The position numbers and the translations under genes were made by a program. A stretch of 64,000 bases of DNA from Marsupella aquatica. Lineage: Eukaryota > Plantae > Marchantiophyta. The notes under the pieces were generated by a model, which saw only the letters and a list, made by a program, of their open reading frames with translations, made no database searches and was not told the origin of the DNA. The stretch lies in contig OZ316896.1 of NCBI GenBank assembly GCA_973895155.1, positions 9,259,539 through 9,323,538 of the forward strand. Direction: 5' to 3'. Shown piece by piece: positions 1 to 22,100 of this stretch. The first letter of the stretch is position 1. The number at the start of each line of letters is the position of its first letter.

Positions 1-2082
1 GTCTCCTGTGTAATCTTCCAAATCTTGAAGGCATTTGGCCAAAGATGTCACAGTAAAGTCTGCATCTCCAGGCCAAAGTCCAGTCAAACTGAAATGTGCA
101 TACACTCCAGGATCTCTTCCATGGGTTAACATCCTAGTAAGAGCAATAGGCAGAGGCTGACCACTACCAGAGAGGGATTTTGGAGTGGGGACCAACCTGG
201 GGATCCAAGTCTTGGCTTGATCCATCTTATCGTGAATAATGCAAAGATATTTTTGAGGATCCTTCTTTGCAAGAACCCTATGAGCATAGTAAACATATCT
301 TCTTGACATTTGTTCACGAAGATATCGCGCTCTTTTCTCTTCAATCTCTACACGCTCTTTTTTTCTCTTCTCCCGCATCAATTGATCTTTGAACTCAGTG
401 CAAAATGTGCACTTGGCAAATGCACTTCCCTTGTGAAAGTCAAAATTATCAAATGAGTTTTTCCAGATGTTGTACATAGTAACTTCAGTAACCTTAGCAA
501 ACCCATCTAACTCCATCTTGGTAAACACCTCTTGGAAAATCTCCTTCTTAGTAAAACAAGATGGGAGCCGATATTCAATAGTGTCGGTGCCGTTGGACCC
601 ACCATAGGGAAGATGTGGCATTGGTTCCCCATTTTGGATTAAAATGGACTCCAACAAGGCGCGAGCGTGCAAAGTGCTTGATCGTGTCTTCCGTTGTCCC
701 TGATTTCCATGGAAACCAATTGTGCAACTGAACCCGTGCATTTTAATAAATGCATCTTTACAAACCACACGTCCCTTTAGAACAAAAAATCCCTTTGTCT
801 TGACTTGCTCCTCTCTGCACCCAAAGAGACTAAAGATGTGACTTGTTTTGTTGTCACTTGACATTCCATGGTATTCCCTCCTCATTGCCTCTAAGTCCTC
901 CATAGGCATGTTCAAGCAACACTTCAACTTGCAACAACCTTCTCTTTGGATGGAATCAATGGACTCCTCGGTAATTTTCAAAAGTGCCCGTGACTCCAAA
1001 TGCCTTTTCTTCTTCTCCTCAAGATCCACTTTTGTCCTCTTAATGAAATTGTATGGTCTTTTTGTAGGTTTACAATCACCATCCGAATCCGGATCGCCCT
1101 CAGTTCGACCCGACTCCATCCACTTCGATGAAACTTCCTCAAGGGTATCCCCAAGAAACCTTTGAGATGAAATCAATAGAAGGGATTTGATTTCCCACCT
1201 CACCAAGCCGGGGGTACCAACACAGATATTTGGAAATAATTCAGGTTCATTGATAGTCACAACAACAACACCCACATGATCTGCACCAAGAAGCTCATCA
1301 TCAACGACACCTATTTCAAATGGGATAGTGATAACACCTGTTGCAACCTTCCGACAACGAGAAGCGTCATACAAATCAACCTCCTCTGCCATCCAGTTGG
1401 AACGTAGTGTAAAATCTTTTAATGGAAGATCATTGAATATGTTTGCGCTACCAGACACGCCATAATCTTGTAGAGTGCCTTTTCTAGAAACATGCGCAAC
1501 ATCCCACATGACCCAGGTATGCAAGGCCTCTTCTATTGTATCAGCTCCAGGGTGTGAGTATGGCAATTTTTGATTTCCCTTAACAATATCAGATATTCGT
1601 ATACTGATACGACCAACACCTAGTCTTTCAGTATGACAAATATCCATCGGATTTGTCTTGAAAACGACTCCATTTGCAACCAACTAATCAAAAATGAACA
1701 TCTGAACTTCATCTCCTTCCTTGAACACCTCCTCTTCAACCCTCGCGTCAGATTTGGATTTACCATTTCTAGCATCTCTAGCCAAAGAGAAATCATCGAC
1801 ATTGATTCTTCGACGAAGAGTTGATGACCTCAAGTATGCCAATGCACAATGCCAGATCACGCAGGAGTCAATTGCCTCAGCCAATGTAGAAAATTTTGGT
1901 GAAGGAAATGGAAGTTGATGCAATCCCTCAAAGCACTTTTTGATCAATACTCCAATTTGATTATCCCCCAGACAAATGTTCTGTATAGTATCCTGGGGGT
2001 CAACCTTTTGAACTATCCCAATTGCCACTTCAAATCCTTCAATCACCAATGAAACTTCATCCCCTTGTGTAAAGTTGATCAT
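1..2082 (-). pseudogene. DUF7869-like (Sola-like DDE) transposase with N-terminal repeats resembling the CACTA-associated DUF8039 domain; runs off the window edge
   Basis: ORF 1684-2082 continues in frame past a TAG at 1684-1686 to position 1. Hand translation gives CCKLKCC, VCKDAF, EPMPH, YRLP, FAKCTFC, YYAHR, LCIIHDKMDQAKTWIP (181-246), MLTHG and LWPGDADFTVTSL, a motif order typical of DUF7869-type transposases. The N-terminus has about three VAxG...LP...W repeats. Confidence 0.7.
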
Positions 2083-2210
2083 GATAGCGGACTATCTGTA
2101 TCCAAATCAAGTTAGATATTGTTAAGTTTTGGATGTTACAATCATGTTTCAAAATCAGGACTCTCCTCCAAAACATATTGTACAATCACTCAAAAACCCC
2201 CAACAAATTC

Positions 2211-2470
2211 AAGTTGGGTCGAACTTATTCCAACCCTCTGACAACAATATATCTTTAAATGATTGAATTGACTAACCATTTACAAGTCGGGTCGGAATTA
2301 GTTCGACCCTCCAACAATATGTCTTTAAATGATTTAATTTACTAAACATTTACAAGTTGGGTCGAAATTAGTTCGACCCTCCTCCAACAATATGTCTTTA
2401 AATGATTGAATTTACTAAACATTTACAAGTTGGGTCAGAATTATTTTGACCCTACTCCAACTATTGGGTT
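2211..2470. repeat. ~70-bp tandem repeat (about 3.5 copies), each with a short palindrome
   Basis: Unit aagttgggtcgaaattagttcgaccct...ccaacaatatgtctttaaatgattgaatttactaaacatttac. Perfect 8-bp stem gggtcgaa/ttcgaccc at 2359-2379. Confidence 0.85.
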
Positions 2471-2599
2471 GAAATTATCTCAAAACTATTCGTAGAACTA
2501 TCTTGCTTGTGCTTGTATATACCAGATTAAAACGCTAGTCAAGATAACATAGTCAAGTTGGCACGAAATAATTCCGACCCACTTCTAGAAACTATGTGA

Positions 2600-3565
2600 G
2601 TGGGCATTATCCACGTAGCTGATATGGGATTCTTCCCGGATGGGGTAACAATTGATCAGATGTTTGAGAAGACTCATTCTCAAATAAGTGGAGTTGACGT
2701 GGTGTTCAGATTTCTATATGTAAAGAAGCACATGCATGACAATGCAGACAGTGTGGACCCTCCGTCTACTTGGATAGTTCAAAGGATGATTGAGAAGGCA
2801 CATTTCTCATATGAGCAGGCCTTCGACAAGAGTTTCATTTTTTGTCCAAAGTTTCAAGAGGCCGCGTGCCGGACGTGGATTTCAGAGATGAAGAAAAAAG
2901 AAGCAAAGCATAAGGCAAAACAGAGAAAGAAGACAGTGGAAAGAAACTCGCAATCAAAGACAGAGAAGAAACGGAAGCTTTGAGAGCCACTTGTTCAAGA
3001 AGAGAAACAATCTAGGACTTCACGCTGTAAGAAGATGGCTTCAAAAAAGGATGATGATGAGGGTCTAAAGACAAAGCAAACAAAGAAGGCAAAGGTTGCA
3101 AGATCAAAACCAATGCGAGCGTCGACATCAAACTTTGTCTTGCATCCAGAGGATGATAGGTGTCCAACAGAAGGACCCGAAGAAGATGATGTGCTCAAAG
3201 CCCAAGAAGTTTTGCGTAATATTGAGCAATATTATACTTTTGGCATCCGCAAAATTTTTGATATTCCTGTCAAAAGTATTATTCCGCCATCGGCTGTTTT
3301 TGTATATCGAATGTTAAATCATTTGCATGCAATGGAGATATCCAAGTCTATGATGAAAAACCCTGGATAGGAACCACAAGTTGTTGATTTGATTCCGTAT
3401 CGCGAGAGCACTAAACAGTTGCTTCATTATGACAACACACCTCAAGATAGGAAAGAGTTTTTGATTGGTGTGAAGAAGCAGGAGATCCAATTCCTTGCCA
3501 TCAGTGGCCAGCATTCTGCAAGAGCTGCCTAATGGATCCAAGGGTGGGCCGAGATTGATGCCAAG
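2600..3565 (+). pseudogene. 5' part of a transposon cargo gene with a ParB/sulfiredoxin-like domain, interrupted by Copia
   Basis: ORFs 2600-2983 and 3035-3370 share a frame and continue through TGA/TAG/TAA stops to ...IQFLAISGQHSARAA*WIQGWAEIDAK. The pattern IPVKSI...YRML...H...I..S plus AISGQHS (3497-3517) resembles the ParB-N 'idGqHR' motif. The frame resumes exactly after the Copia TSD at 10267. Confidence 0.55.
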
Positions 3566-3895
3566 TGTTGAACTAAGATGTCATTCGCAACGACCATACA
3601 ACCATGATTCATTCCATGCACACGTAGTCGACACAATCTCTACGTGGTTCACCTTTTCTCCAAGGCTACGTCCACACAAACATTCAAGCTTTACTTCAAG
3701 AGTAGACGAACACACATGCTCTCTCTTCCTCCTGTTGCTCTGTTACAATGAGTAAGCACCACTACCCAGCGGCTTACACTAGCCCTGGTATATACAAGGT
3801 CACACACGACTAACCTAACCTCAGCTAAGACCCTAACTGTGGTTAGCCTAAATGCCGTAACCTTTGAGTCACAAGACTAAGAGTAATCCTTAACA
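3566..3895 (-). repeat. 3' LTR of Copia element 1
   Basis: Direct repeat of 9932-10261, adjacent to the PPT (gagtcaagggcgagtt on minus). Confidence 0.95.
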
Positions 3896-4099
3896 AACTC
3901 GCCCTTGACTCTAGTCTTGGGGACTGCAATTTCTACTATCCATATGAGATACTCAGCGGGAAATTCTAGACAATCACCTAAAACCATAGGTGTCCCCCTA
4001 AAAACCATTTAAGGTTAACTAAGAGTTAACTAGAATTAAGCCGTAGCCATAACAGGATTGAGTAACTCATATATAGAAATCACATCTTGTTAAGTTACT

Positions 4100-7000
4100 C
4101 TACTTGTGCTGCAAATGCAAAACCTGCAAAGTAGCACGGTGTCTTGAGTAACTCTCCAAAGAAATCACTTTGATAAAAGCATCAGCCGGGTTGAGTTTTC
4201 CATCAATCTTGACTAGCTCAAACATTTTATCAGACACTGCTTGCCTAATAAAATGGTACCTGATGTCAATGTGCTTCACCTTGCTATCCATCACCTGGTT
4301 AATAGCTAGGTGAAGCGCACTCTGGCTGTCACAATGAAGAGCCATTTTTTCATGTTCCAATCCCATCTCAGTGACCAGCTTATCCAACCAAATTGTTTCC
4401 TTTGCTGCTTCTGCTGTTGCAACATATTCTGCTTCTGTAGTAGACTGAGATACACACTTCTGCAAGGTAGATCTCCAACTTATGCATCCTCCTCCAAGAG
4501 TAAACACATACCCAGTCGTTGACCTCCTTGTTTCCAGACAGCCTCCGTAGTCAGAATCTACATAGCCAACCAAAAATTTGGTTTTGTTTGATTTACTATC
4601 AAACAATAGACCATAGTCTATTGTGCCCTTAAGATACCTGAGAATCCATTTCACAGCCTCCCAATGTACCTTCCCTGGATTTGACATGAATCTACTCACT
4701 TTGCCCATTGCTAGGGCTAGATCAGGCCTGGTACATGTCATCAAATACATTAGACTGCCCACTGCCTTCTCATAAGGAACCTTAGTCATCAAGCCTCTCT
4801 CCACTGGATCCGTGGGGCAGAAAGCCGATGATAACTTGAAATGTGGAGCCAAAGGAATACTTACTGGCTTACAATTTTCCATGTTGAATCTTGCAAGTAC
4901 CTTTTTAGCATACTTGCCTTGATTCAGCCACAATTGTCCAGTTTCAAAGTTCCTCGTAATCTCCATACCTAAGATCCTCTTGGCTTTCCCAAGATCCTTC
5001 ATTCGGAATTCAGAACTCAATTTTGCTTTGAGTTTGTCAACCTCAGTTTGATCCTTAGCCGCAATCAACATGTCATCCACATAGAGCACCAGAATGAGCA
5101 AACCAAACACACCATTCTTGACTGATTTTGTATACACACAAGGGTCATACACCATCCTAGTAAATCCTTGTGCAAGCATGAAATCATCAAACCGCTTGTT
5201 CCACTATCGAGGAGCTTGCTTCAATCCATACAAGGACTTAAGCAACCTGCAAACTAAACTCTCTTGGCCCTTCTTCACAAAGCCCAGTGGTTGCCTCATG
5301 AAAATTTGTTCTTCCAAGGTGCCATAGAGAAAAACAGTAACAACATCCATTTGATCTAACACCAGATCAAAAAACACAACAAGTTGACACAAAATTTGTA
5401 TCGTGGAATACTTGGCAACTGGAGAGAAGACCTCATTGTGATCCACTCCCTTCTCTTGAGTGAATCCCTTGGCAACAAGCCTTGCCTTGTATATCTTGTC
5501 TCCTCCATCTGAAGAGTTGTCCTTCAGCTTGTAAATCCACTTGCTATCCACCACTTGTTGATCACTTGGCAGTTGCACCAGCTCCCATGTTCTGTTGTCA
5601 CTTAAAGATTGCAACTCCCTCTGCATCGCTGCATTCCATTCATCTTTCTCGTCTGAAATGCACGCCTCATGATAAGAAGAAGGTTCTCCTTCTTCCAAGA
5701 TCAGTGCTCTGTCATCATCTTCAGGTGCAATGTCAACATCATCTAACCTTGATGAATCTGTCCATTGTCCATACCTTGTAGGAGCTCGAGTAGTACGTCT
5801 TGATTTTCTAGCTGATGATTCTGGTTGATCTTGTTCTGTTGGTTGAATTTGAGGTATTCCAACAACAACTTGCTCCTCTTATTCCAATACCGGAACCAGC
5901 TCCATTCTCGGAGCACCTCCTTCATTTATGTCATGAAAACTCTCATGACCAATCTCCCCCACAACATGGTCCAGGATAGGAGATTTATCTTTGTCAGTAC
6001 GGGAAGCCTGAGCATTCTCCCCCTCCTTTGATGATTTGGATTCATTAAAGGATACATCTCTACTGACAAGCAACGTACAAGCTTCTGGATCCCATAGCCT
6101 GTAACCTTTCACACCTGGTTGATAACCAAGAAAAAGATACTTCTTGGAAGTAGAATCTAGTTTAGATCGATTCTGCTTAGGTGTGAGAGCATATGCATTA
6201 CTTCCAAAGACTCCCAAAACCTGATAGTCTGCGTGCCGTCCATACCTCATTTCAAACGGCGTCTTGAAATTGATTGCACTTGAAGGAGAAAGATTTACCA
6301 AATAAGCTACCGTATTTATAGCTTCAGCCCAAAATTCATGCGATAAACCTGATTGGCTCAACATACTCCTCGATCGCTCCAATAGTGTTCGATTTAGCCG
6401 CTCACAAACACCATTTTGTTGAGGAGTATAAACTGTCATGAGATGACGAGTAATCCCTTGCTCTGCACAATATAGTTTAAACTCACTTGAACTGTACTCC
6501 CCGCCGTTATCTGATCGCAGATATCTCACCTTGGATCCAGTCTGATTCTCAATTTGGGCTTTCCACTTCTTAAAAGTGCCAAAAACTTCAGACTTGGCGT
6601 GTAGAAATATGATCCACACATACCGTGAGTAATCATCAATGAACGTGACATAGTACAATTTTCCAGAAAGTGAGAGAGTTGGGGCTGGACCCCACACATC
6701 ACTATGTACATACTCAAGTATAGCTTTGGTATTGTGAGTTCCAACACCAAAGGTTCTCCTGTGCTGTTTCCCAAGCACACAGTGTTCACAAAAATCCAAC
6801 TTAGTAGATTCCAAATTAGAAAGAAGTCATTTCCTGCGAAGTACCGCCAAACCCTTTTCACTCATGTGTCCCAATCTGCAGTGCCATAACTAAGTCATCT
6901 CGCCTTGAGATCTAGTTACATTGGCTTCTTCACAAATCACGTTGCCCTCCAACAAATATAGATTCCTATGCCGCTTACCCTTCATGATAACCTTGCCTCC

Positions 7001-7327
7001 GATTGACACTTGAAGAATACCATTAGCAGTACTCCACCGACATCCATTTGCTTCCAGCATTCCAAGAGAAATCAAGTTCTTTTTCATGTCAGGTATGTGT
7101 CTGACATTACTCACTGTTTGCACAGCTCCATCAAACATCCAAATTTTCACGGATCCAATTCCAACAATTTGACAAGGATGATCATTCCCCATCAACACGG
7201 AACCGGTTGATACTGAGTAAGAAGTAAAAAACTCTTTCATACAACAAATATGATAGGTACAAGCACAATCTAAAATCCATTCATCACCGTTGTTACTGGA
7301 TGAAATGCAAAGGGCAACATCTGGACT
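4100..7327 (-). pseudogene. pol: Copia pol (protease, GAG-pre-integrase/integrase, RT, RNase H), disrupted
   Basis: WILDCAC protease region (7260-7280), HSDVWGP and LRSDNGGEY integrase, KARLVAKGF and LYVDDML RT, CDSQSA/KHIDIRYH RNase H. Premature TAG stops at ~6890 and ~5204 and frameshifts near 6830 and 5870. Confidence 0.95.
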
Positions 7328-8230
7328 TCACAAGATTTTATCATCAAGCAAGTCAATCATATCAATATCAGTGGCTGCGTTCGCTGATGGTTGATGAGTC
7401 TGCTTGACTCGACAGTCTCGTTTCATGTGGCCAGGCTTGTTACATTTCCAGCATATAATTGGTTTCCTTTCTAGAGATTTCTCTCTAGACCTGGATCTAG
7501 ACTTAGACCGAGCCTTCTCCTTGCCTCTATTCCGTGAGGGGTACGTTTGTGAAAAGGACCTATTTTCACCAGTCATCCGCTGTTGAGTCCTCCCGTGGTT
7601 CACATTCAATGCCCTGCCAGATGAAGATGGTGCCTGGGCATGACCCAGTTTCTTCTGTGCATCATCTGACAACAAAGAGCTTACCACCTCATCATATGAA
7701 ATGGTTTTGAGATCTCTATACAAGAGAACCTGCTTCAAACCTTGATACGATGGGGGTAAGGAACTGAGAAGAAGCAATGCCTTATCTTCATCTTCCACTT
7801 CCTTACCAAGATTTGACAAATCTACAGCTAGGCTGTCAAATTCATCCAAGTGATCTCGAAGCTTGCCTCCTTCTTTTAGCCTCAAGCTCATCAAGAGAGA
7901 CTTCTTGCACAACCAATCTGAGGCATCCTCTCGGTAGTACTTCTCTCTGAGGGCCTTGAATAAGGATACGCAATCCTCGTAGTCGTCCAGCTTCTTAATG
8001 ATATGCGGCTTCAGATACAGCATAACCGCATTCACAACAATCACTTGCTCTTGCTTCCAATTCCTCAACGGGATCTCCTCCTCACTGCTAGACTCCTCCC
8101 AAGTCGATAGCAGATGATCTAGGCCCATAGCACGAAGAATTCCCTTAACCTGCTTCTCCCATAGCAAATAATCTGTGCGCCCATAATATTTTTCCACCTC
8201 AAACTTGACACCTCCAAACTTGGATGCCAT
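7328..8230 (-). CDS. gag: Copia gag with CCHC zinc knuckle
   Basis: 300-aa ORF with LLSSLPPSY (Copia gag) and CWKCNKPGHMKRDC; ends in TGA in frame with the protease. Confidence 0.92.
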   Translation of the reverse strand: MASKFGGVKFEVEKYYGRTDYLLWEKQVKGILRAMGLDHLLSTWEESSSEEEIPLRNWKQEQVIVVNAVMLYLKPHIIKKLDDYEDCVSLFKALREKYYREDASDWLCKKSLLMSLRLKEGGKLRDHLDEFDSLAVDLSNLGKEVEDEDKALLLLSSLPPSYQGLKQVLLYRDLKTISYDEVVSSLLSDDAQKKLGHAQAPSSSGRALNVNHGRTQQRMTGENRSFSQTYPSRNRGKEKARSKSRSRSREKSLERKPIICWKCNKPGHMKRDCRVKQTHQPSANAATDIDMIDLLDDKIL

Positions 8231-8949
8231 CGTTGTCCTCCCAACGTTCTCCTCGTGCTATTGTTGTGCTGCTCCCTATATGCTTTTTCCTTCCTTCTTT
8301 CTTGTTGACTCAAATCCAAATCACGAAAAAATGTCGTTTTTTGCAACTTTCCAAAAAACTTGAAACTTGTCACCGCCACTTAGCCCACCAACCTAGCAAG
8401 CCAACGCTGAAATCCAAAATTGAAATCGAGTTCCGACAAAAAACTTTTTTCACATTTTGGTCGGGATGGGTAAAACTCAAAAATTCTTTCCCGTTTTGAC
8501 CACCTTGGGGAATAAGAAAAATTCCAAGTACCACCCGTCGTCGGAAATTCAAATCGAGTGGTGCACCGCGTTGCTAGCTTCAGTGGCTACGTTCTCGCCA
8601 AAAAAGATCCGAAAAAAGTTATTGTTCGGACCTTGGAACCTTCGACTAAAGGCCGAAAAACAGCTCTCTGTTTTTTTGGAATATTCCTTGGACTGTGCAA
8701 CAGGTCTCACAGGGGGCCGTTCCCCCTGTCCAAGCGGTTAATTTGGTGGGTCACCGGGCCCGGGATGCCGCTTAACCAATGAGGAGCCTGGAAAGGATTA
8801 AAAAACCGGGCCTAAGGGGGTTTAAGCCCCTTAACACAAAAGTATTGTCTTAAAAAAAAGGCGCATCTGTGTCGCCTATACGCGTGACGGGCCAGGCAGT
8901 GCACAGGGGGCCGGGGAGTAAAAAACCGAGTTGAAATGGGCAGGGATGG

Positions 8950-9080
8950 AGCTGCGACGACCGGGACGTCTGGGACGGCCACGACGGTCGGGACGTCTGG
9001 GATGTCCGTACCGGCTGCGACGTCCGTGTCGGCTGCGACGTCCGCGATGGTCGGGACGTCTGGGACGGCCGGGACGTCTG
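8950..9080. repeat. GC-rich 9/18-bp degenerate tandem repeat in the Copia 5' leader
   Basis: Repeated gggacgtc / gcgacgtcc / gggacggcc units. Confidence 0.75.
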
Positions 9081-9931
9081 CCATGGGAGTATTAGCGAGG
9101 AGGAGGAGGGGATCGCCAACGGGGTATTGACAGGGGTGCAAGGGTCGCGAGGGTGTGTATACACACCACCAAAAAGGCCCTATTCTAAGGCAAAATGTGC
9201 ACAAAAAATAAATTTGTTGGGTTACTCACATTGCCGTTATCACTTTACACCAGATAAAGACTAGTTGTCGACGGGAAATGTTACCGAATTGCACCGGCAC
9301 CGTTTGCAACTCTAGCAGAGTAAAAAATTCCCGTCACGACTCCTTCACTCCGCGTCAAGTGTCAATCTTGGACTCAAAACGACCACTGCACCGCGATCTC
9401 TCCGTTGAGCCGTTGCACTTGCCGTTTCTTCCTTTGAGTTGAACGCAACGACAAGAAACCCCGCTTCAGTCAAAAGAAGACTCCATAGCCAGTCAGAAAC
9501 TCAGAACGGCTCTTTTGCTTGGTACATCGTACTCACTACACCCTCGATAGCAAACCAGCTACCGAAATGATCAGCTTTGCCCGATCTACGATTTGAGCTA
9601 AAGGTTGTGACGCCTCGTGCACCACAAAGCTCACACCGTCGGGAAAATGATCTCAGTTCCCCCCCAAAAGAACCGTCGAAGAAAACCGTCGAACATGAAT
9701 CACAAAAAATCCAGAATGACGGAAACATGAATTCCTCCGCATCATGAACTCCGTTCAGAGATTTCTTTGCACCGTCGGAAAGCCCTTGCCCCAATCTATC
9801 CGTTGAGCCCAACACCTCCAAGTTCCATGCGACAGAACTCCATGAAATTCACCAACTCTAACCGCTGGAAAAACCGTCACCAAAATTTTGATCACCTCAA
9901 CGTCACCTCCCAGGCTTGCTCTGATACCAAT

Positions 9932-10261
9932 TGTTGAACTAAGACGTCATTCGCAACGACAATACAATCATGATTCATTCCATGCACACGTATTCGACAC
10001 AATCTCTACATGGTTTACCTTTTCTCCAAGGCTACGTCCACACGAACATTCAAGCTTTACTTCAAGAGTAGACGAACACACGTGCTCTCTCTTCCTCCTG
10101 TTGCTCTGTTACAATGAGTAAGCACCACTACCCAGCGGCTTACACTAGCCCTGGTATATACAAGGTCACACATGACTAACCTAACCTCAGCTAAGACCCT
10201 AACTGTGGTTAGCCTAAGTGCCGTAACCTTTGAGTCACAAGACTAAGAGTAATCCTTAACA
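9932..10261 (-). repeat. 5' LTR of Copia element 1
   Basis: Followed on the minus strand by PBS TGGTATCAGAGC (9929-9918). Confidence 0.95.
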
Positions 10262-10266
10262 CCAAG

Positions 10267-12817
10267 TTGACAGACCTAGCCAACAAACTAAAGTATAGGA
10301 AAGCAAGGATCCTATCTGACCTCACTGCAAAGAAAATTTTGGTTGAGCATTCAAGTTTATCGAACGCTGTGAATAATACTATGCAATTTAAGTCTTGTTT
10401 TTTAGAGACCATTGTTCATGCAAGAAGGCAATTTGAGTCCGAGTGCGGGAAACCGCCGCGTCCAGGGATTGGGACCAATCAAAATACAGACAGGAAAAAC
10501 TATCAGGTACATTTCTGAGCAAGGCAAACTATTCTTGATCCCCTTTGATTAAATATTGTGGTAGATGTTTGCCTAGCCCTTAGGGCGAGGCTACCTTGTC
10601 TTGTTTTCCTTGGTTAGAAGATTAAAGCAAATGCTTGCCTTGCCCTTAGGGCAACGCAACCTAGACTAGTCTCTCTAAGAATATTGCCCAAGTTCCATTT
10701 CTGTCAATTGCGGTTGGATGCAGAAGTTTGCCTCGCCCGTTTCAAACATCTAGATATAAATTTTCTACCATATGCATTGTACCCTGAAACTAATGTCAAG
10801 TCCATTGGATATGCAGAATTGGTTTGCCCTGGCAAAGGTCACAATGGGGAAGTCGAGCTTGAAGAGCATTTACTAGTTACTTTTTGCCGAGGATGAGCTC
10901 TTTGAATTATGGCGGAATGTGTGTGGAGAATGGTTGAGTGGGAAGCTCCAAAACGGCGCTGGTGGGTATGGAGGGCCAAGACCCCCACGAGGACCCCCAA
11001 AATCGATTGTTCCCGGTACCTTTCGATGCTTTGAAGGAGAGATTAGTAGTGAACAAATAATTGAGATCTTGAAGGACGTTCAAGAGGAGCGTGCCTTGAT
11101 GAAGAAGGATATCATCGACAAATTAGAGCTTGTCGCAAGGGGAGACTTGGCACTTACTGTAATCAAGATAATGTCCAAACTGAGAACAATCATTACTGGC
11201 TATTTTGTGGAAAAGTATCGTGAGAAGTTTCCTGTTGGCACATCTTGGTAGTCTCTAGTGACGTTGTTGCCTTCCTTGAAATCTGAGCTTGAGATGACAA
11301 AGTTGAGGAGAGCAGCGGGTGAGGTTTACCTCAACAATTTGTTGAAGAAGAACGTGGTCAAGGAGAGTTTCCCGCAAAGTCTGATGGTCAGACTAGATGG
11401 GTTGTATTGTAAACAATTTGGTGGGATTGGTCGTTCCCGCACGGAGCCTTTCTTCACATTTTTTAGTGATAATTTGATGAAGACGACCATGCCGAAGATG
11501 CTACAAGAGCCTTTGCCTTTGTGTCCTCTTGCCATTGTTGACTTCAGTAGGTTCCGACAACATGTTTGGACTTATGCTAAAATTATTGCATTACTGCAAT
11601 ACATTGTGGATCTTCCAAGAAATCCAACAATTGTTGTTGTCATGATTGTGCATCCGGGGCCACTTGCTGCAAACATTTTGAGTGCCCTTAGGAAATTGCA
11701 ACATGAAAAGGGAATGGACATCCACGTTGACTACAGGAGCTATCGACGGAGTGATACACTAGTTCCAGAGGGCTTACTTTTCAATTGTGGTATGGAGGAG
11801 ATAATCTTTGCAGGAATCACCACTGAGGAGAAATTTGATTGAAAGCAAGTGTTCAAGCCTGGATTTAATTGCCAATTTTCTTACAATTTGACGATAGACC
11901 CTGATTTCCAAGTGGGAGACAAGATGGAGAAGCGAGATAAGAATAAGAGTAAGACAAGTAAGGAGACAGAGGCTGAGTCAACTACGACATTTCACATTGG
12001 AGATTTCTTGCGAAAGGCTCCCATGTTTGAGATGGTGGGAAGTAGAGGTGGCTTTGTGAATATTCACGCTAAGCCAAAATGTATGCTGCAGAGTATTATT
12101 GAATTTTTTCGGCTGAAGGGGAAACTATCCTTGACTTTTTCTTGGGAGGATAGGTTATGAAGGTGTCCTTGTTGTGTTAATTTCAGAGAATGCTTTGCGT
12201 ATTCAGACACTGAGGATGAATATGATTTCACTCAAGCATATGGAAGGGTTCTCTGTGAGAAGGTTCCTTCCATAATGAGTCACCGGATGGGCGGTTCCAA
12301 ATTTGGCAGATCTTGCGATGGGGTTTCCGAGCGTGTTGGCGCCAAAGAAGGCGTAGAGCAGGGTGAAGATGAGATTGAGGAAGGAGAATTGGGTCACGAC
12401 ACAAACGACAGGGTCACCAAAAAATTGGATGAACGTGGAACACAAGTGGTAGGTACTCCCTACTTTGGTGTGGGGTTGACCGATGTTGTGGGTCGACCTG
12501 AGGGCGACCCACCAAAAAATCCCTTTGCCGATGTAGAGAATTGGATGCACCAATCGGACCCAGATCTTACATCGTCCACATTGGACGCACAATGGAAGGC
12601 AACCGCAGGTGATCTAGGCAATATTGGCGCAGTAGAATTGGAAGAAATGCCAGACATTGCGCTTGCAAAGGAGGATGATCGCCAAGTGCTTGAGACCGTT
12701 GCAAATGAAGAAGAGAAGGCAGGTGCTTCAACTCCTGCCCTATCTCCTCTATATTGCTCATCAATGAGTAAATTGGTTTTTACAAGTGCTTCTACAGGAA
12801 GCCCTGTAGTATTATAA
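10267..12817 (+). pseudogene. 3' part of the cargo gene, including a beta-class N4/N6 DNA methyltransferase-like domain and an acidic tail
   Basis: The frame continues from 3565, with a likely GT-AG intron at ~10508-10816. Correcting a 1-nt frameshift in the T run at ~12104-12110 gives GGFVNIHAKPKCMLQSIIEFFSAEGETILDFFLGG*VMKVSLLC...RECFAYSD, matching the KPxxL..I..S..GxxILDxFxGxG...R..G.E (motif X-I-II) consensus. LAIVDFSRF (~11527-11553) sits where motif IV (DPPY) is expected. Confidence 0.55.
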
Positions 12818-13499
12818 TTTTCACAAAATTTTGGATCCGAGATAGGTAGGACTGGATATATGAAAACAGTCCATCGTGCAACTCATTTCATATGGAGAAA
12901 TGGACCAAAGGTTGGAATGATAGAATCACTAGACGAAACTCCAAAGATAATGGCAAAATCAGATTACAAAAAAATGAACTTGAGATTGAGCCCAGTTTTT
13001 GCACCCCCATCCTTTGAAGAGCAACTTCTCGGTGGCATCAATTCTGAGATACAGAGTGTTCTAGGTGATCAGCCGATAGATGAATTTGGGCATTTTAACA
13101 TCAAAAATTATTAGCCTTTTCTTTGGTTCTTGGTATTTTAATGACAATCTAAGCTTTATCTTTGTAATAATATACTTTTTGACAGACCAAAGTTGCGTCG
13201 TAGAATCTCCTTCCTCAAATGATTTTAATGGCATTCCCTCGGAAAGCGTTGCTGTGGAGGAAGGGTTTGACCCAGGTATACCTTGGATCTAAAAAGTAGC
13301 AAATTTTGAATGTAATTGTTTTTCTAGGAGGGTCGCCCCAGGGTCGTTCCTCTCTCCTTCAAATGTTATAACAAAGTTTGTTTGATTTCAAATTTTGAGA
13401 TTTTCCTCGGTAGTAATTGTTTAAACTTTGAGTCACATTGACTAAGGGCTTATTTTAATGTTTCCAAACTTCACTCCAATACTACACTCTCCGATCTAG

Positions 13500-14474
13500 C
13501 GAAAGCTCTTGGTTCTTGATCTTAACAAGATTTGTTGGGATTGCATTAAGATTAGAAGCTCAGGTACATGGCAAAATCAGACAAGTTTACGTGGTGTGCA
13601 CTAGGGGAGACGTGAAGGGTTTAATTTCATGTATGTGGAGCGCCCCTACCTCCAAGAATTTCTATATGCAGCTTTCATGGCTTTTGACGTTGCAATTTGG
13701 ACCTGTGCAAGGAGGCCAAAAACAATGGACACTGAGGAGGAGCGACATAAGTTCAAGTTTGTCTTTACTCAAGAAGATACCTTTGATAGTTGCATCCAAA
13801 GGCTAGATATAACAGACGGGAAGGCCAATTTACTTTTGAAGAATCTGCAAACCATTTGGGACCGCTTTCCAGAAAAATATGATGCTTCTAATACAGTTCT
13901 TATTGATGATTCTCCATTGAAGGCATTTTTGAATTATGACGTAAATGGATTGTTTCCAAATCCATTTACTCACACAGCTTCAAATGACACTTTTTTGCCC
14001 GAGATATTATGGCCGTATCGTTGCAAATTGAGAAAGGCCTACTGTGTTCAACATTATATCACTGTCAACAATCCAAAGTGGTCTATTTTCAATTTATTAA
14101 CAAGCAAGGAGGATCATGCTGCCATCTATGCTCTTTTGGAGGTGAAGTGGGGAGATTGTCGTTGTATCCATAAGGAGTTTGGAACCATCTTGGATGTGAC
14201 TCCTGAAGGAAAGGAGGAGGTGCAGCATTACCCACCACTAGAGACGTGGACCACGAATGAGATCAAAGAAACTGCAAATGCTATACTTGGAGACAACTAT
14301 TCTAGTCCTCATAGACAAAATAGAAGGCATTTTATTTGGAAAGTTCTAAGAACTAGGGATCTCGCCAATAAGTTTAAGAACCACCATGCGAGAGATACTT
14401 GCAACCGTTACATCCGCTATGATACATCAGGAAGCAGACTTTTTTGTTCAAATGAGTTTTGTCTTGATCATTAG
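13500..14474 (+). pseudogene. FCP1/NIF-type HAD phosphatase-domain gene (frameshifted)
   Basis: RKLLVLDLN at ~13500-13526, then RPYLQEFL, FDVAIWT, LLKNL..IW, NTVLIDDSPLKAFLN and LFPNPF in ORF 13629-14474: the FCP1-homology motif set. Confidence 0.8.
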
Positions 14475-14939
14475 GAGATAGGGTTGCTCTAGTGCCTACC
14501 CTGAATTGTGCATTCATATTATGTCTTGAAAAGGATATGTTTTGAACATGTAGGATAAAGTAAACAATTAGGATATGCTTAGTGTGAGGCTCTCTCACTG
14601 GACTGGACAATTTATTAATTATATAGTGGGTCAATCTCATTATGACCCTTGATTTATCATCATAGATATTTTTTAATTTATGGTCTGAGTGGTATTGGCC
14701 TCTGATTTTTGGATTGAATCAAATTTACTTTAATTTATAAATTAATTAGAATATATGATTTAAGTTATTATTAAACATTTGGGTGAAAAAACAAAAATTT
14801 GGGCATTCAAAAGTGCATATTTGGGCTGAAAAAAATTAAATTTGGGGAATGATTTAAAAGAAATTTGGCCCGAGAAAAACAACTTTAGGATTCATATTTT
14901 GGACTTTTAAAAGTACAGTTTTAATGAATATAGTGATAT

Positions 14940-15569
14940 AAGCAATCCTGACAATGATACCATTCAGCCAGATTCATGTGATGTGGAGCAAGGTGTGTGC
15001 TATGTAGATCTTGATCCCATTGTAGAGATACATGATTTGTAGAATGTGTCACTATCAACAACGAGTGTACCTCTTGTTGTGATAAATTCAACTGAAGAGT
15101 TTGTTGGTATGGCACTCCCAGGTGAGGTATCGGCTATTGTGACAGTCCTAAGAGAGGAACCTACTAAGCCTAGCTTCACTACTGTGAAGAAAGGAAGCAT
15201 GCGCACACGAAGCAAGTCTGCTAGGAGTAGAGCCATGTCAAAGGTTTCATAAAAACCTCCAAGATTGGTGTTGGCAGAAAGATCTAAGGTGGAAGTGGGC
15301 AAGGCACCTAATGCAGAGGGACAAAGTGGTTTGTTAGCTATTGATGAAAGTGGAACACAAGTAGAATTTGGCAGAGTGCAAGTTGGTTCTACAATGTTCC
15401 ATGGCAAGAGGATCCCACCAGGTTATTCCGTAGTGTTAATCACATTACTAGTGAAACCTAAAGCTGTTCTTCCCATTCCAAATACAAATGATGATCTTCT
15501 CAGAAGACACTTAGAGATGCTGCAGGTTCTTTGGTATTATGGCCAAGCAAGTACATAGAGGATCCATGA
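14940..15569 (+). pseudogene. 3' fragment of a CACTA accessory (TnpA/DUF8039-like) gene
   Basis: Joined ORFs read ...VEFGRVQVGSTMFHGKRIPPGYSVVLITLLVKPKAVLPIPNTNDD..KTLRDAAGSLVLWPSKYIEDP*, the typical CACTA-associated HG..IP.GY..V......LP.P....TL.DA.GS.VLWP pattern. Contains stops and frameshifts. Confidence 0.7.
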
Positions 15570-16079
15570 CAATGTGATGTCATTATTTTTTTGTAGTGTG
15601 AGTCAAGCTTTGTAGATTTTAGAATTCAAGAAGCAATGCGCAATATATCATGTTTGATAATTGATAGTAGCATGCATTTGCTTTCAATTGTTTCAAACAA
15701 TTATCAGTTTAGAAGTTCCTATTTTCTCTGAATCACATTGATGACATTGTAAACTGTGCGATTATAATTGAATTAATCATCATCTTTCAGCAATATTGTG
15801 ATTTTGTTGAATTCTTATGAATGAGTTTTGTGGAGGATCTACTTATATCATGCTTTGTTTCATGTGAATGTCATTCATGCCGTGTTTATTTCTTGTATTC
15901 AATGTGTTATACTTCTAAAGGATGAATGAGTGTTTATATGTATTGCAATGTGGAGTGCTCATGAATTGACTATCTCTCCTTATGAACTGTTCCACAATTT
16001 CTACCTTCCATTCTTGGATTAGTCATGGTTACAACTTCCCTAAATTCTATCTTAATCTGTTTAGTTATAAACATGACTA

Positions 16080-16479
16080 TGTAGAGACCCAAATGGTTGT
16101 GTTGTGTGACTCGGACCAGGGTCTCCCTGGGTCTATTATGTGACAATAAAAAGTCACAAGTTAGTCGCTATTAACAAGGTTGACAACGCTTCTAAGGGCA
16201 ACTAAGTCATGGACGTGACTTACCCTGTGACTAATTGAAGTCATATTACAGTCACGTACCAACAAGGCTAGACTCCATGATGGAGTCACAGATGAGTCAC
16301 AAATGGGTATCAAGCAAGTCGCGATGGTGTGTATCAATAGTGACTTCTATTTTTTGGTCTCAACTTTTGCAACTCCAAGGGTCACAACCTGGGTCACGTC
16401 ACGTTGAGTCACAATGAAGTCACATGAGCCAAAAGGAGTCACATATTGCGGTCTCAGATGAACTCAGATTCTTCTAGTG
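16080..16479. mobile_element. Right terminus of a CACTA (En/Spm) DNA transposon
   Basis: Ends ...ttcttcTAGTG at 16479 (CACTAgaagaa on minus), preceded by more than 10 subterminal GTCAC/GTGAC motifs in both orientations, downstream of the DUF8039-like gene. Confidence 0.8.
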
Positions 16480-16856: not shown

Positions 16857-19102
16857 GCATGGTGCATGGGGAGTCCCAACCTGAGTAGGATTGGAGAGCA
16901 CTGAGGAGTGAGAGCCAGAGTTGCGCTTGCTAGGCAAGCGCGAGATAGGGTCTTGTAGAGACTGGGCATCAACTACCGGTAGGCTTGCTAATTGCTTAGA
17001 AGTTGAGTCAACTATGTACATGTTACTTCTTTATCTGAGTAAATTTGGTCTTTCCCTCTGATCTTTTAGAGTAGTCCGTGTATTGTGCATACCTTGTCTA
17101 GGACGTACGGGGTGCAGACTAATGGTTGGAATTGTAAGGACCGAAGTGCATGTTAAATACGTCGCAAGTTCTGGTTGTTGGTAATGGCTTGAAAGTCCCC
17201 AAGTCGAGAGTTAGTCCAAGTCATTAAATGTGGGTGTGTTCCAGCGGTGGGATCCAAATATACCTATGATGTCTATGAATGCATAATACTATACCGATAC
17301 ATATATAGTCCGTATTAGACTAACCCGGGCCACTACACCCCTCCTTGCCCGAAACCTCACCCTTACTGACCGTGGCTATGCGCGCCCCAAGGAGAACCCG
17401 GATTTAGCCTGGGTTGGTGGTACGACAAGAACTGTCCCTCTCTAGGTGAACACAAATACACAAGAGTCAACAGAAAAAGTGAATGATCCAACATCAAATG
17501 TAGTTGGGGCTGCGGCTAACTGCAAGTAATCTGAATCCTATAATTACAGTAAACAATACTCCTGGCACTCAGACAACTGAACCCCCTGTCAACAATTTCA
17601 TGGAAGCTGATCAAAATGTGGTGATTGCACCTTCACCAGCCCCAAGGGATGCTGCCTCTCTTATTAATAAGGGACATAGTAACCTCTCTACCCCTCCACT
17701 GAACGAGAATGAGATTGTTGGCGACAAGGTAGAACTCAGCAGAAAAAACGCCTCTGTTATACAGACTGGAATAAACAACCTCTCCTCTCCGGCCCCAATC
17801 TCTGATAGGAGGCTCCATGTTTCTTCTCCTGTGGTGGTGGATAGGCAAGCTGTGGCCATTGCTGATTCACAGTGGGAGGCTGGGAAGATTGTGTCAATTG
17901 CATCACCTGAGATTGAGCAGGACAACATTGAGATTTTCTCATTCCAACATTCATGCTCTGGGATTGAGAACCTTCCCCTTCCTAAATGTTGAAAGGTGTG
18001 GGCGACAGAACCTCTTCAGGAGTACTTTACAAGACGTTAGGGGCACTTGGGAGATTTTTTTTCCCCAAAAGCAAACTGGAGGGCCATTCCCACACTAAAT
18101 ATAATGTCCAGTGGCTAAAAGCATTTTTGAAATCCTTGTATGGCACCTATACAGTGGTGCTTTAATTTGCTAAAAGGTGTAGTGAGTGGTGCTAGATTAA
18201 TTTGCTAAAAGACAGATTGGAGATCCACTCCACCAAAATGTCACTTATTTGGCTAAAGTCTTCCTAGATGTAAGAGAAGATCTTATGAATGAATTGTGGT
18301 CCCTTTTTAATGCAATGACTTAAAATAGGAATGGGCGGGCTGAGAAGAAGGGACCTCCAATAGAGGTGGTCTAAAATCTAGGACAAAAGAGTGCTCTACA
18401 TAAGCAAAAATTGGGCCCTGTTCCGTTCCAAGGAGAATTGGTAATAGGTTAGGTTTAAAGTGCCCCCAACTTTCTGTGAAGTGAACAAGAGCAGTTTCTC
18501 CCAAATAGATAGCCTTCATCAGATCTTGGAGACCAAAAAAATGTGAAAATTGCCCCCAAGGGTAACGCCACTGGTTTCAACCTTAGATAGCCAGTCACGA
18601 AGTGTCCAACTTCCAAAGTACACAAGCCAAAGTCACACTGGGTAGGTCACACAAGTGTCGTACAACAACTTGCATTTGATTTCATCTGACAAATGCTCGC
18701 ATTCCAGCTGGGAAAGTGCTTTGGAACAACCGGGCACGGTGTACGACCATCTTTGGTGACATTGGAAATCGTATCCCACTATATATCAAAATATCAACAA
18801 AAATGTAAAACCGGGAGGGTTTAACCTTAGATCGCCAGTGAAGTGTCCAAGTTCCAAAGTCCACAAGCGATGCTCGGTCCACAAGCCAGAGTCACGCTCG
18901 GTCTTACAAAAACTTGCATTTGGTTTTATTTGATTTCATCTGACAAACACTCTCATTGCATCTGGGAAAGGGCTTTGGAACAACCGGGCACGGTTTACGA
19001 CAATCTCTGGTGACATTGGCAATCGTATGCCACTATATATCAAAATGCCAGCAAAAATGTACGACAATCTCTGGTGACATTGGCAATCGTATGCCACTAT
19101 AT

Positions 19103-22100
19103 GAGCTATGTGGGTTGTCTGAGTTGCAGCATCTAAAAGCCTTTTGGATTTCTGCTCCAGCCTGGTGACCGGCCCTGGCCTGGCCTGGGGTCCGACGCTT
19201 TTTCTCCTGGCTCTGAGCCGGGGTTGGTTTGACCTGGGGGAGCACATTGTGGCGTGGCTTCTTGGTGTTCTGTTCGGAGGGGGTGCCTCCGCGACAGCTT
19301 CCTTTGCGCAAGGCTGCGGCGGTCCTTTTAGATGTGCGGTTGTTGTCACTACCGGGTCGAGGTTCTTTGCTTCGGTCATCCATCCTTTGCTTTTGTTTTT
19401 GTTGTCGCTTTCGTAATATTTTCTGTTTGTTTTTGTTGGACTTGCCTACTTTATATGTTTCTTCTTCATCCCTGTTTTATATTTTCATTTTCACATGGAG
19501 CCTCTTCCCTTTCTGAGTTCCCCTTCCCCCACTCCGGGCCCACCGGCTTCTCCCTACTCCACTCCTCTTTCCGTTCGTCGCCCTCGTCCCTCCTCACCTC
19601 CCACTTCCCCTTCTGATCCCCGTGTCCAGTGCGATGCTTGTCATAGTTGGTACCGGCCGTTAGGTTTGACGCGCCACCGTCGTTCCTGTCCTGCCCCTCG
19701 TGCTTCCTCCTCCACCTTGCCTCCACCCCCGTCCTCCCCCCACCTCCATCTGGGCCCCCTCCCTCCTCTTGGGATTGGTTGGCTCACCTTGATGTCCTTG
19801 CTGCCCTCTATCCCGGTTTTTGGCATCCCCGTTTGTTTACTAGGATTCCCGTGCCCGTGCGGCCTCTCCTTCAGAGAGCCTTTCGTCTTCCCTTCGACCG
19901 CTTGGCTCGCGACCCCTCAGATGTTGGGGCTTGGTCCTTGCTCCTCCTGCTCCCTCATTGGGTGCTGGTCCTTCCTCCGTGGGGGGGGCCGTCCGGGCAT
20001 AGGGAGACCTTGGTCCGGTTGCAGCGGTTCCTTTCTGGGGATTGGGCTTCGCTTCATGAGGAGTATTACCATAGGTTGTTAGCGTTGGCCTCTCGGACCT
20101 CTGAGCTAGTCGAGGAGCCATCTGCCCCTCCAGGGCAGCGCCGGCTTCGCCAGTGCCTTCTTTTGGGGCAGGCGGGGGAGTTTTCTCGGGCCGCTCGCTC
20201 CTTGGTCCCCCTCTCCCCCTCTCCTCCATCAGCCGAGACAGTTCTTGCCTTACGGTCTCTTCATCCCCCGGCTGCATCTGAGGTTCCTTGTTTTCTCGGG
20301 AGCTTTACCCCTGAGACCGAGTTCTCCCTATCCCGTGAGGTATTCTCCTCTGTCTTCCTTCATCTACCCTGCCTATCCGCGGGCGGGATTTCTGGGATGA
20401 GGTTCGAGCACCTACGCGATTGCTTTTGTCCCGACGACTCGACATCTGGTTTTTCTGAGTTGTTCCAGGTTTGTGCCCATGTCGCGGGGGGCCGTATTCC
20501 TCCCGTGGTCGCTCGGCTTTTGGGGGCCTGTCGGCTTCTGGCTATGGCCAAAGAGACTGGGGGTGTCAGGCCCTTGGCCATTGGGGAGGTCTTGTTTCAC
20601 TTGGTGAGCCGTTGTGTTTGTCTGCAAACTCGGGCTCCCTTTTTGTCACACTTTTTTCCTCACCAGTTTGGTGTGGCCACCCCTGGCGGTTGCGAGAGTG
20701 TGGTGCATGGCCTTCGTGCCATCTTGGATATCCACCCCGACTGGGCGGTTATTCAGGTGGATGTGGCTAATGCATTCAACTCTGTATCCCGTTGGGTCAT
20801 GTTTGAGGAGTTGCGGGCCGCTGGAGGGGAGATCGCATCCCTCATCCCCTTTGCCCGGGCCTTCTATGGGGCCCCGACCCCCCTGGTTTACCCTGACCAT
20901 CTTGTTCCTGGGTCCTATGTGACCATCTCATCCGAGTCCGGGACTAGGCAGGGTGACCCCCTTGGTGGGGCGTTGTTTGCTATGGCGCACCTTCGTGCTA
21001 TTCGTGCCTCTTCGGATGCCTTCCCGGGTTGCATGTTTCCTTTTGTTGCGGATGACACTCACATTGTTGCCCCGGTCCCGCTTGTTGGGGATGCCTATTC
21101 CCACTTTGTGGACCAGCTTACCCTTATTGGTCTTTCAGTCCAGCCTTGGAAGTGTGGGGTTTGGTCTCGTCTCCCCCTCCCACACTCTTTCACCCCACCT
21201 CTTGGTATACCCATTCGGCTCGAGGGCATTAGAGTCCTTGGGGTGCCTTTCGGGGGAGCGGTCTTTGAGCAGGATTTTCTTCTTGCGGCCCTATCCCAGG
21301 ACGTTTTGCATATTGACCAGTTGGCGTCCTTGGGGGATGCCCAGATCTCCTTTTTGATCTTGGTCCTTTGTTTTGTTCGGCGTCCTTCCTATCTTCTCCG
21401 GACAGTCCCTCCTACTGCGATGTTCCTGTCCTTACTCTCTTCATTTGACACCACTGTGATGAGAGTCTTTGGTCACCTCATTGGTCCGGGAGCCCTTGAT
21501 GGAGAGGATGGTTCTTTTGCGGCTAGGCAGGCTGCGTTACCCCCATCGGGAGGGGGTATGGGGATGGCCTCGGTTGTGGACACTGCCCCTTGCGCGTTTC
21601 TTGGTAGTTGGGCGCAGGTGGCCCCTGCCCTGGCCTCACGTTTCATTGTGGACCTTCGGCCTATCCTCTCTGACTCGGTCATGGGAGTGGAGAACGGAGC
21701 TCTCCCTTTTCAGGTCCAGCTTCGTCATGCACGGTCATTATTGCCGGAGGACGTGCAGAGCGTGGTCCCTGCTTTCGAGGGAGTTGTTATGGACAGTCTG
21801 GATCGAGTCCAACAGGTGATTTCTGATTGCATGCACCGACACACCCTTTCCAGCATGCTTTCTGAGGCACCCTCGGATTTGGTACGGGCTCGTCTTTTAT
21901 CCGGTTCGGGCGCTGGTTCGGGGGCTTGGCTATCGGCGAGTCCTCTTTGGGCCCCCTTTCGTATGAGTTCTTTTATTTTTACCACATCCACGCGCCTTCG
22001 GTTGGGTCTTCCTCACCCTTGCCTCTTGGGTCAGCCCACTTGCGTCTGTGGTGCGCCCCTTGATGGGCAAGGCATTCACATTCTCAGGTGCGATCATGGT

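What the first reader, a model, noticed from the sequence alone, without database searches (positions are those of the whole stretch)
1..14937. Large DNA transposon carrying a ParB-like / N4-N6 DNA methyltransferase-like gene and a phosphatase
Seen: a DDE-like transposase (minus) and a long cargo gene (plus) face away from each other across a palindromic repeat array. An FCP1-like gene follows, then an AT-rich end at ~14935 where an unrelated CACTA coding sequence resumes abruptly. Established: ParB-N fused to beta-class amino-methyltransferases is typical of phages and plasmids, and eukaryotic beta-class 4mC enzymes are known (bdelloid N4CMT, Marchantia DN4MT1). Inference: a multi-gene cut-and-paste element with DNA-modifying or DNA-binding cargo, possibly for self-marking or anti-silencing, and a possible vehicle for moving 4mC/6mA enzymes into plant genomes. 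This copy is decayed.
Basis: partly seen in the sequence, partly recalled or inferred. Interest (0 to 1): 0.85.

Follow-up and report, generated by a model that had tools for sequence, protein, structure and literature searches.

The report
Plant transposon carrying disarmed methylase-like gene
This is a broken copy of a large plant jumping gene whose passenger protein is predicted to fold like bacterial ParB joined to a DNA methylase but lacks the usual methylase catalytic motif, so it likely grips the element's own repeated mirror-image DNA word instead of methylating DNA, a design already described in algae.

Summary
The feature is real. It is the right-hand part of a large, multi-copy, decayed DNA transposon, interrupted by a Copia element (3566-10261). 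It holds a DUF7869 DD(E/D) transposase (minus strand, runs off the window), a head-to-head accessory gene and an FCP1/NIF-like gene, and ends at 14935 (TAGTG). Other copies show many flanks there and an empty site. In intact homologs the accessory protein has a beta-class N4C/N6A methyltransferase fold (Z 17.8 to CcrM) and a ParB/Srx-like N-terminus (moderate support). The catalytic motif is missing: 0 of 27 aligned rows have (D/N/S)PP(Y/F/W), and most read D-F-x-R. A palindrome, GGGTCG-N3-TNA-N3-CGACCC, occurs 8 times in the 64-kb window, always inside the element (0.05 expected), and ties the three genes together. Best reading: a Sola1-like element with a likely non-catalytic, self-binding regulator. 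The architecture is published for Ectocarpus Sola1-1_Ec32 and for red and green algae; a land-plant, pseudo-enzyme version was not found in my searches. No support for a link to Marchantia DN4MT1. Transposase-cargo linkage in other copies is not shown directly.

The parts
1..2082 (-). DUF7869-type DD(E/D) transposase, N-terminal part; three Transposase_23 (TNP1/EN/SPM)-like repeats at 1819-2076, 1489-1728, 1165-1404; first acidic motif IIHDKMD near base 230; one stop (1686) and a 14-residue deletion; the rest lies outside the window
   Evidence: (45% identity to P0080 over 745 aa)
1091..1111 (.). Palindrome copy inside the transposase gene (1 mismatch), in a poorly conserved linker
2202..2583 (.). 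Array of 70-73 bp units, each with GGGTCG-N3-TNA-N3-CGACCC (copies at 2216, 2289, 2359, 2432, 2560; weaker at 2466), between the two head-to-head genes
2600..3565 (+). Accessory gene, exon 1, first part: basic linker and ParB/Srx-like domain with ISGQHSA at about 3500-3520; three stops; the true start may lie slightly upstream
3566..10261 (-). Nested Ty1/Copia LTR retrotransposon (not part of the DNA transposon); LTRs 3566-3895 and 9932-10261; target duplication CCAAG at 3561-3565 and 10262-10266; coding frame broken by stops
10267..10506 (+). Accessory gene, exon 1, second part (end of the ParB-like domain)
10507..10816 (+). GT-AG intron; the same position is seen in locus L001 and in truncated homolog gene calls
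10817..13114 (+). Accessory gene, exon 2: helical region, beta-class methyltransferase-fold domain (about 11440-12260; D-F-S-R at 11540-11551; DFFLGG at 12133-12150 in a shifted frame), acidic tail and small conserved C-terminal block; five stops and a frameshift pair
12490..12510 (.). Perfect palindrome copy in the accessory gene's tail; further copies at 13330 (arms only), 14481 (arms only) and 14628
13500..14474 (+). FCP1/NIF-like HAD gene; motif I reads LLVLDLN; stops at 13497 and 13602 are sense codons in most other copies
14778..14935 (.). Right end: short TTTGGG/AAAA repeats and terminal TAGTG (CACTATATTC... read inward); followed by ATAT
14936..16479 (+). Host element into which the transposon inserted; its ORF continues in frame into the empty-site sequence of other copies; CACTAG end at 16479

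Best explanation
This is a decayed copy of a multi-copy plant DNA transposon with a DUF7869 (likely Sola1-type) transposase, whose head-to-head accessory protein is predicted to join a ParB-like domain to a beta-class methyltransferase fold, lacks the catalytic motif, and likely binds the element's own palindrome as a non-catalytic regulator. Shown: gene order, the nested Copia, the right terminus, homology, loss of the motif across the family, and a palindrome confined to the element. Predicted from models of homologs: the two folds. Inferred: the transposase cuts and pastes the unit; the accessory protein, probably as a dimer, docks on GGGTCG-N3-TNA-N3-CGACCC, which is densest in the shared promoter region. 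There it would keep both genes expressed or shield the CG-containing sites from silencing, as VANC does for VANDAL elements. The role of the NIF-like gene is unknown; chromatin or Pol II tuning is a guess.
For: Fold: model of intact homolog P0075, residues 463-737, matches CcrM (Z 17.8, rmsd 3.5, 224 aligned), M.RsrI (Z 16.6) and N4CMT (Z 15.9). Foldseek E 7e-7 to M.PvuII; profile hit to M.RsrI E 1.5e-6. ParB-like: Atlas structure search TM 0.56-0.65 to ParB_N, DUF3723 and DndB clusters; features 0.95 to DUF3723; DndB E 0.031; a phage ParB/Sulfiredoxin protein aligns over 564 columns, E 6e-6. Motif loss: 27 of 45 rows cover the site; 26 have D and 1 has E, then F in 25 and R at position 4 in 22; none has PP(Y/F/W). 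0 of 72 homolog sequences (many are fragments) contain [DNST]PP[YFW] anywhere. Yet six long homologs only 28-54% identical keep 32 invariant positions, so the protein is maintained. Palindrome: 8 of 8 window matches lie in the 8.2 kb of element, 0.05 expected. Outside the array, 5 arm matches in 7,790 bp versus shuffle mean 0.03 (0 of 500) and 2 in the other 55,760 bp; spacer 9 gives 5, other spacers 0-1. Terminus: 8 contigs in run X3 and 5 in X5 leave the window at 14934-14938 into differing flanks, and 5 contigs show the empty site. Precedent: PMC12477816.
Against: No binding, expression or methylation data. The ParB assignment is moderate: my own model was low-confidence there (pLDDT mostly under 50), Foldseek gave only non-significant Srx, ParB and Noc rows (E 1.4-4.2), VIA gave Z<=3.6, and Atlas rows were under its naming bar. 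Placing D-F-x-R at motif IV rests on strand order and a low-confidence profile alignment, not a residue-level superposition. No other copy was seen to link transposase and cargo: the 7 cargo and 8 transposase Calypogeia accessions are not adjacent (closest 60 apart). The palindrome was defined after seeing the array. The transposase has its own repeats that could bind it. No listed contig bridges the whole cargo-to-NIF interval.
Confidence: 0.58

Rival explanations
1. Same element, but the palindromes are binding sites of the transposase (through its three TNP1/EN/SPM-like repeats or another domain), and the accessory protein does something else, such as non-specific chromatin binding or acting as a decoy.
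For: Three Transposase_23-like repeats in the transposase. A 2026 preprint reports that transposases are themselves sequence-specific activators (10.64898/2026.08.24.746577, abstract and one section). The peptide footprint of the palindrome, G-R-x-x-x-D-P, recurs in 7 of 22 transposase homologs but 0 of 72 cargo homologs.
Against: The palindromes are internal, not stacked at the terminus; the right end has different short repeats. A dyad with fixed spacer suits a ParB-like dimer (recalled property of ParB/parS).
Confidence: 0.2
2. The accessory protein is an active amino-methyltransferase with an unusual D-F-x-R active site that marks the element's own DNA with 4mC or 6mA.
For: The Asp is kept in 26 of 27 rows, and motif X-I (NPxxKP, DFFSGG) is the best-conserved block. 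Unusual strand-4 motifs exist in some eukaryotic clades (PMC4738411 section 8). The Ectocarpus authors propose self-modification.
Against: Both prolines and the stacking aromatic are absent. Motif I has a one-residue deletion against phage enzymes, and the acidic residue after the next strand aligns with Ser. Inactive beta-class folds are known (METTL14).
Confidence: 0.12
3. Chance nesting: a DUF7869 element abuts a separate CACTA-ended element that carries the cargo and NIF genes.
For: The terminus reads CACTA, which is unlike the AACCG end of Sola1-1_Ec32. The left end and target duplication are not available. No copy-level linkage of transposase and cargo was obtained.
Against: The same rare palindrome lies in the transposase gene, the intergenic array, the cargo gene and the 3' region. 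The same head-to-head layout is published for Sola1-1_Ec32. Flanks after TAGTG mostly begin with AT, which fits the Sola1 AWWT preference.
Confidence: 0.1

Closest known systems
Sola1-1_Ec32 of Ectocarpus (PMC12477816; section 5, part of the reference list and supplement rows read; figures and FASTA supplements not seen)
   Same: Large DNA transposon with a roughly 1,100-aa ParB-like plus N4C/N6A methyltransferase gene on the strand opposite the transposase; nested insertions; 4-bp target duplication reported there, AT-starting flanks here.
   Different: Land plant host; terminus CACTAT instead of AACCG; extra NIF-like gene; TNP1/EN/SPM-like repeats on the transposase; catalytic motif absent (its state in Ectocarpus was not seen); palindrome not mentioned in the passages read. 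Direct sequence homology not tested.
Beta-class N4C/N6A DNA methyltransferases (CcrM, M.RsrI, M.PvuII, bdelloid N4CMT, Marchantia DN4MT1) and phage ParB-methyltransferase fusions
   Same: Same fold and permuted motif order.
   Different: 8-14% structural identity; (D/S)PPY replaced by D-F-x-R; shortened motif I; about 220 helical residues between the two domains; no special closeness to N4CMT; DN4MT1 has TSPPY.
VANC anti-silencing proteins of VANDAL elements (PMC5735166; abstract and section 8 read) and Spm TnpA
   Same: Functional analogy: an element-encoded accessory protein and a short motif enriched in the element, arrayed in tandem in non-coding DNA.
   Different: No homology tested or expected; the motif here is a 21-bp dyad; binding is not shown.
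DUF3723 cargo of fungal Starships (10.1101/2021.12.13.472469; passages read)
   Same: The N-terminal domain resembles DUF3723 clusters by Atlas features (0.95) and structure (TM 0.62); both ride on large mobile elements.
   Different: Different mobilising enzyme (tyrosine recombinase); no sequence-level hit to PF12520.

Membership tests
Beta-class N4C/N6A DNA methyltransferase | Permuted Rossmann-like fold with catalytic half before SAM-binding half | tested here: met
   Model of homolog P0075: Z 17.8, rmsd 3.5, 224 aligned to CcrM; E 7e-7; PF01555 above cut-off in P0025
Beta-class N4C/N6A DNA methyltransferase | Motif IV (D/N/S)PP(Y/F/W) | tested here: not met
   0 of 27 covering rows; 0 of 72 sequences anywhere
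Beta-class N4C/N6A DNA methyltransferase | Motif I FxGxG | tested here: inconclusive
   DFFSGG conserved but one residue short of phage DFFMGSG; SAM binding unknown
Beta-class N4C/N6A DNA methyltransferase | Methyl transfer to DNA | not testable with these tools
   Needs assay or long-read modification data
ParB/Srx superfamily | ParB-N/Srx fold | tested here: inconclusive
   Atlas TM 0.56-0.65 to ParB_N, DndB and DUF3723 models, all under its naming bar; own model weak. The evidence agrees in direction but is not decisive
ParB/Srx superfamily | CTP-binding GxxR motif (recalled) | tested here: not met
   ISGQHS in 9 of 9 homologs and the window: Ser where Arg is expected, so canonical CTPase activity is doubtful
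Sola1 DNA transposons | DD(E/D) transposase of the Sola1 clade | tested here: inconclusive
   Homologs are DUF7869 with HDKMD, DNS and GHTHED motifs; no Sola1 reference sequence was available; equating DUF7869 with Sola1 is recalled resemblance
Sola1 DNA transposons | 4-bp AWWT target duplication (PMC3845634 passages) | tested here: inconclusive
   Right flank ATAT; 11 of 13 listed flank contigs share AT (32 rows not shown); left end missing, so duplication length unknown
Sola1 DNA transposons | Terminal inverted repeats | not testable with these tools
   Left end outside the window; no genome held
CACTA/EnSpm | CACTA terminus | tested here: met
   TAGTG at 14931-14935 is the real end
CACTA/EnSpm | EnSpm-type (Transposase_21, recalled) catalytic protein | tested here: not met
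   Full-length homologs P0080 and P0092 hit only DUF7869
FCP1/SCP phosphatases | NIF domain | tested here: met
   PF03031 E 5e-14; UBLCP1 E 4.9e-6
FCP1/SCP phosphatases | DxDx(T/V) catalytic motif (recalled) | tested here: not met
   Window reads DLNK; state in other copies not seen

The most novel reading that the evidence does not exclude
A phage-derived ParB-methyltransferase has been turned, in land-plant transposons, into a parS-like self-recognition system: the protein loads at the element's CG-containing palindromes and uses the dead methyltransferase fold to flip, read or cover those cytosines, so that host 5mC silencing is blocked along the element. This would be a new anti-silencing mechanism.
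Probability: 0.25. Interest if true: 0.8.

Novelty: new variant of a known kind. Interest (0 to 1): 0.45.

Why it matters
ParB-methyltransferase accessory genes on algal transposons were proposed to methylate their own element. This land-plant lineage keeps the protein over long divergence but has lost the catalytic motif, which points to binding, not marking, as the retained job. It also supplies a concrete candidate target, a 21-bp dyad, so the idea can be tested by one binding assay. It does not explain the origin of Marchantia 4mC. Earlier notes of this scan report like elements in plants, animals and Euglena, so this copy is one more example rather than a first.

Tried and rejected
No genome is held, so no genome-wide copy census. 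Window pieces of the cargo gave no Pfam or PDB sequence hit by themselves, and a search for longer homologs of the N-terminal piece found none. Locus searches for linkage: the cargo alignment found 1 metagenome locus of 1.8 kb with no neighbours, and none in viral or prokaryote contigs. The transposase found no locus in either. Accession adjacency in Calypogeia was negative but sparse. Only 21 of the 60 representative hits were looked up for source; 3 were named, all Calypogeia fissa. Read-level evidence for the transposase-cargo junction in other copies is lacking. No RNA holder was listed. tblastn against phages gave only weak motif X-I matches, best E 6e-3 among the 20 of 71 rows shown. Global profile alignments to two phage methyltransferases were unreliable. 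The transposase profile has no PDB sequence match. My first palindrome scan used the wrong spacer. The flanking ORF does not match the transposase's repeat profile. Not held: a Sola paper asked for by a recalled id and the Bostrychia paper; Iyer 2011 was not looked up. The last two may already describe inactive forms or motifs. Literature searches; DUF7869 gave 0 papers, DUF3723 with ParB gave 0. No complex prediction was run.
Full report
Anatomy. Bases 1-14935 hold 8.2 kb of a DNA transposon plus a nested Copia element. The Copia spans 3566-10261, with 330-bp LTRs at 96.7% identity and a CCAAG target duplication. On the minus strand a transposase gene starts near 2082 and runs off base 1. It is 45% identical over 745 residues to the 1,300-aa protein P0080. 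P0080 and Riccia sorocarpa homologs carry DUF7869 and the motifs HDKMD, DNS and GHTHED; only the first lies in the window. Three TNP1/EN/SPM-like repeats precede the core. The named relatives of the transposase are from Calypogeia fissa and Riccia sorocarpa, and those of the cargo from Calypogeia. The host is a land plant, probably a bryophyte; this is not established.

The cargo is one gene. Homologs span the Copia site and the 10507-10816 intron without a break. A search of 1.84 billion representatives gave 60 hits at E<=0.001, mostly fragments. P0075 (1,009 aa) covers both domains and P0013 (901 aa) is 42% identical to the window. This copy has eight stops in the cargo frame and a frameshift pair around motif I. 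In four public runs, other copies have sense codons at 12815, 13497 and 13602 and lack 4 bases at 12177. One run shows an added base at 12105. Gap counts of long contigs in two other runs are net multiples of three, which fits an open frame; this last point is my inference from the table. One run also holds an internally deleted derivative (joints).

Folds. The AlphaFold model of P0075 is confident over about 223-750. Its 463-737 region matches beta-class methyltransferases: CcrM Z 17.8 (rmsd 3.5, 224 aligned), M.RsrI 16.6, N4CMT 15.9, M.PvuII 15.8, with Foldseek E down to 7e-7. The family profile hits M.RsrI at E 1.5e-6. The N-terminal domain is less certain. The Atlas model of P0094 aligns at TM 0.56-0.65 with ParB_N, DndB and DUF3723 clusters, all under the service's naming bar, and features point to DUF3723 at 0.95; these count as one source. 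My own model was poor there, giving only non-significant sulfiredoxin, ParB and Noc rows and Z<=3.6 rows that include KorB and SopB DNA-binding domains. A phage protein named ParB/Sulfiredoxin aligns over 564 columns in BFVD.

Catalytic state. At the end of the strand that by order corresponds to motif IV, 27 of 45 aligned rows have residues: D in 26, then F in 25, and R at the fourth place in 22. None has PP(Y/F/W), and none of 72 homolog sequences has such a motif anywhere. Motif I reads DFFSGG, one residue shorter than in two phage enzymes. The placement is inferred from secondary structure and a weak profile alignment. The ParB-like motif is ISGQHS in 9 of 9 homologs, without the arginine that I recall for ParB CTPases. 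The third gene matches NIF (E 5e-14) but reads DLN. All three signs point to retained scaffolds with doubtful chemistry. Conservation of 32 positions among six homologs at 28-54% identity shows that the methyltransferase-fold domain is still under constraint.

Terminus. The element ends in TAGTG at 14935. In one search, 8 contigs of run X3 and 5 of run X5 leave the window at 14934-14938; the two larger groups have low agreement (0.48, 0.64), so the flanks differ. Five contigs carry the empty site, whose upstream letters continue the flanking ORF in frame. 32 rows were not shown. Eleven of the 13 flank contigs share AT after TAGTG, and the window has ATAT, consistent with the AWWT preference called a Sola1 hallmark in PMC3845634 (passages). 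Contigs of similar mean depth (455-515) cover 10599-12608 and 13512-14791 in X3, but no listed contig bridges cargo and NIF gene in one piece.

Palindrome. The array units contain GGGTCG-N3-TNA-N3-CGACCC. With up to 2 mismatches the window has 8 copies, all in the element (1091, five in the array, 12490, 14628), against 0.05 expected. With the array excluded, arm-only matches number 5 in 7,790 bp (shuffle mean 0.03, 0 of 500) against 2 in the other 55,760 bp, and only spacer 9 is enriched. This is the main evidence that transposase, cargo and right end form one unit. The copies at 1091 and 12490 both encode G-R-x-E-G-D-P in unrelated linkers. Seven Calypogeia transposases keep G-R-x-x-x-D-P at the same place, which may reflect DNA-level constraint or only protein conservation.

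Mechanism. Most likely the accessory protein binds the dyad and regulates or shields its own element without methylating it, like VANC, which binds motif arrays in non-coding VANDAL DNA (PMC5735166, abstract and section 8). Binding by the transposase instead, a non-canonical active enzyme, and chance nesting are the rivals.

Comparison. PMC12477816 (section 5; supplement row) describes the 21.5-kb Sola1-1_Ec32 with an opposite-strand 1,104-aa ParB-like plus N4C/N6A methyltransferase gene, and cites similar proteins in green and red algae. I could not read those two cited works, nor the paper's FASTA supplements, which bear on whether the algal proteins keep the motif. The Marchantia preprint (passages) gives TSPPY for DN4MT1. 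PMC4738411 (passages and section 8) lists phage ParB-locus-derived and inactive eukaryotic methyltransferases; the parts read do not mention this family. PMC5753468 (passages) added nothing. My ten searches found no paper on a land-plant version. Earlier notes of this scan (unchecked) describe like elements in plants, animals and Euglena, including motif loss and palindromes, which lowers the novelty of this copy.

Verdict. Real; a new land-plant, probably pseudo-enzymatic variant of a recently described kind of transposon; interest 0.45.

Noticed in passing
window 10571-10660 (cargo intron): Two related dyads with a CCCTTAGGG centre but different arms; some other copies replace 10513-10593 by 7 letters.
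   Followed up: partly
window 14936-16479: Host element with a CACTAG end and dense GTCAC repeats; its ORF has no Pfam hit and is high-copy in the four runs. Some copies show internal deletions.
   Followed up: partly
window 19647-22754: Open 1,035-aa reverse transcriptase ORF (RVT_1 E 2.4e-7) in GC-rich, strand-skewed DNA, with repeats at 18573-19102 and 22826-23047 on either side; an unusual retroelement, not classified.
   Followed up: no
window 44466-51182: A second Copia, related to the nested one (75% over 3.5 kb), with LTRs 99.4% identical, so a recent insertion; related LTR pieces at 16513, 59690 and 62763.
   Followed up: no
window 24564-26036 and 53616-55754: Host genes: an L-type lectin receptor kinase and a PPR protein.
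   Followed up: no
window 31309-33254: Complex tandem array with a period of about 56 bp.
   Followed up: no
proteins P0096, P0099, P0100: Calypogeia cargo models carry up to 160 extra N-terminal residues with no Pfam hit that are not found in the window; the fifth array unit may overlap the start of the cargo frame.
   Followed up: partly
Atlas rows: Unnamed cnidarian and molluscan clusters resemble the ParB-like domain as closely as fungal DUF3723; DUF3723 itself may be a ParB/Srx-fold family (no paper with both terms).
   Followed up: no
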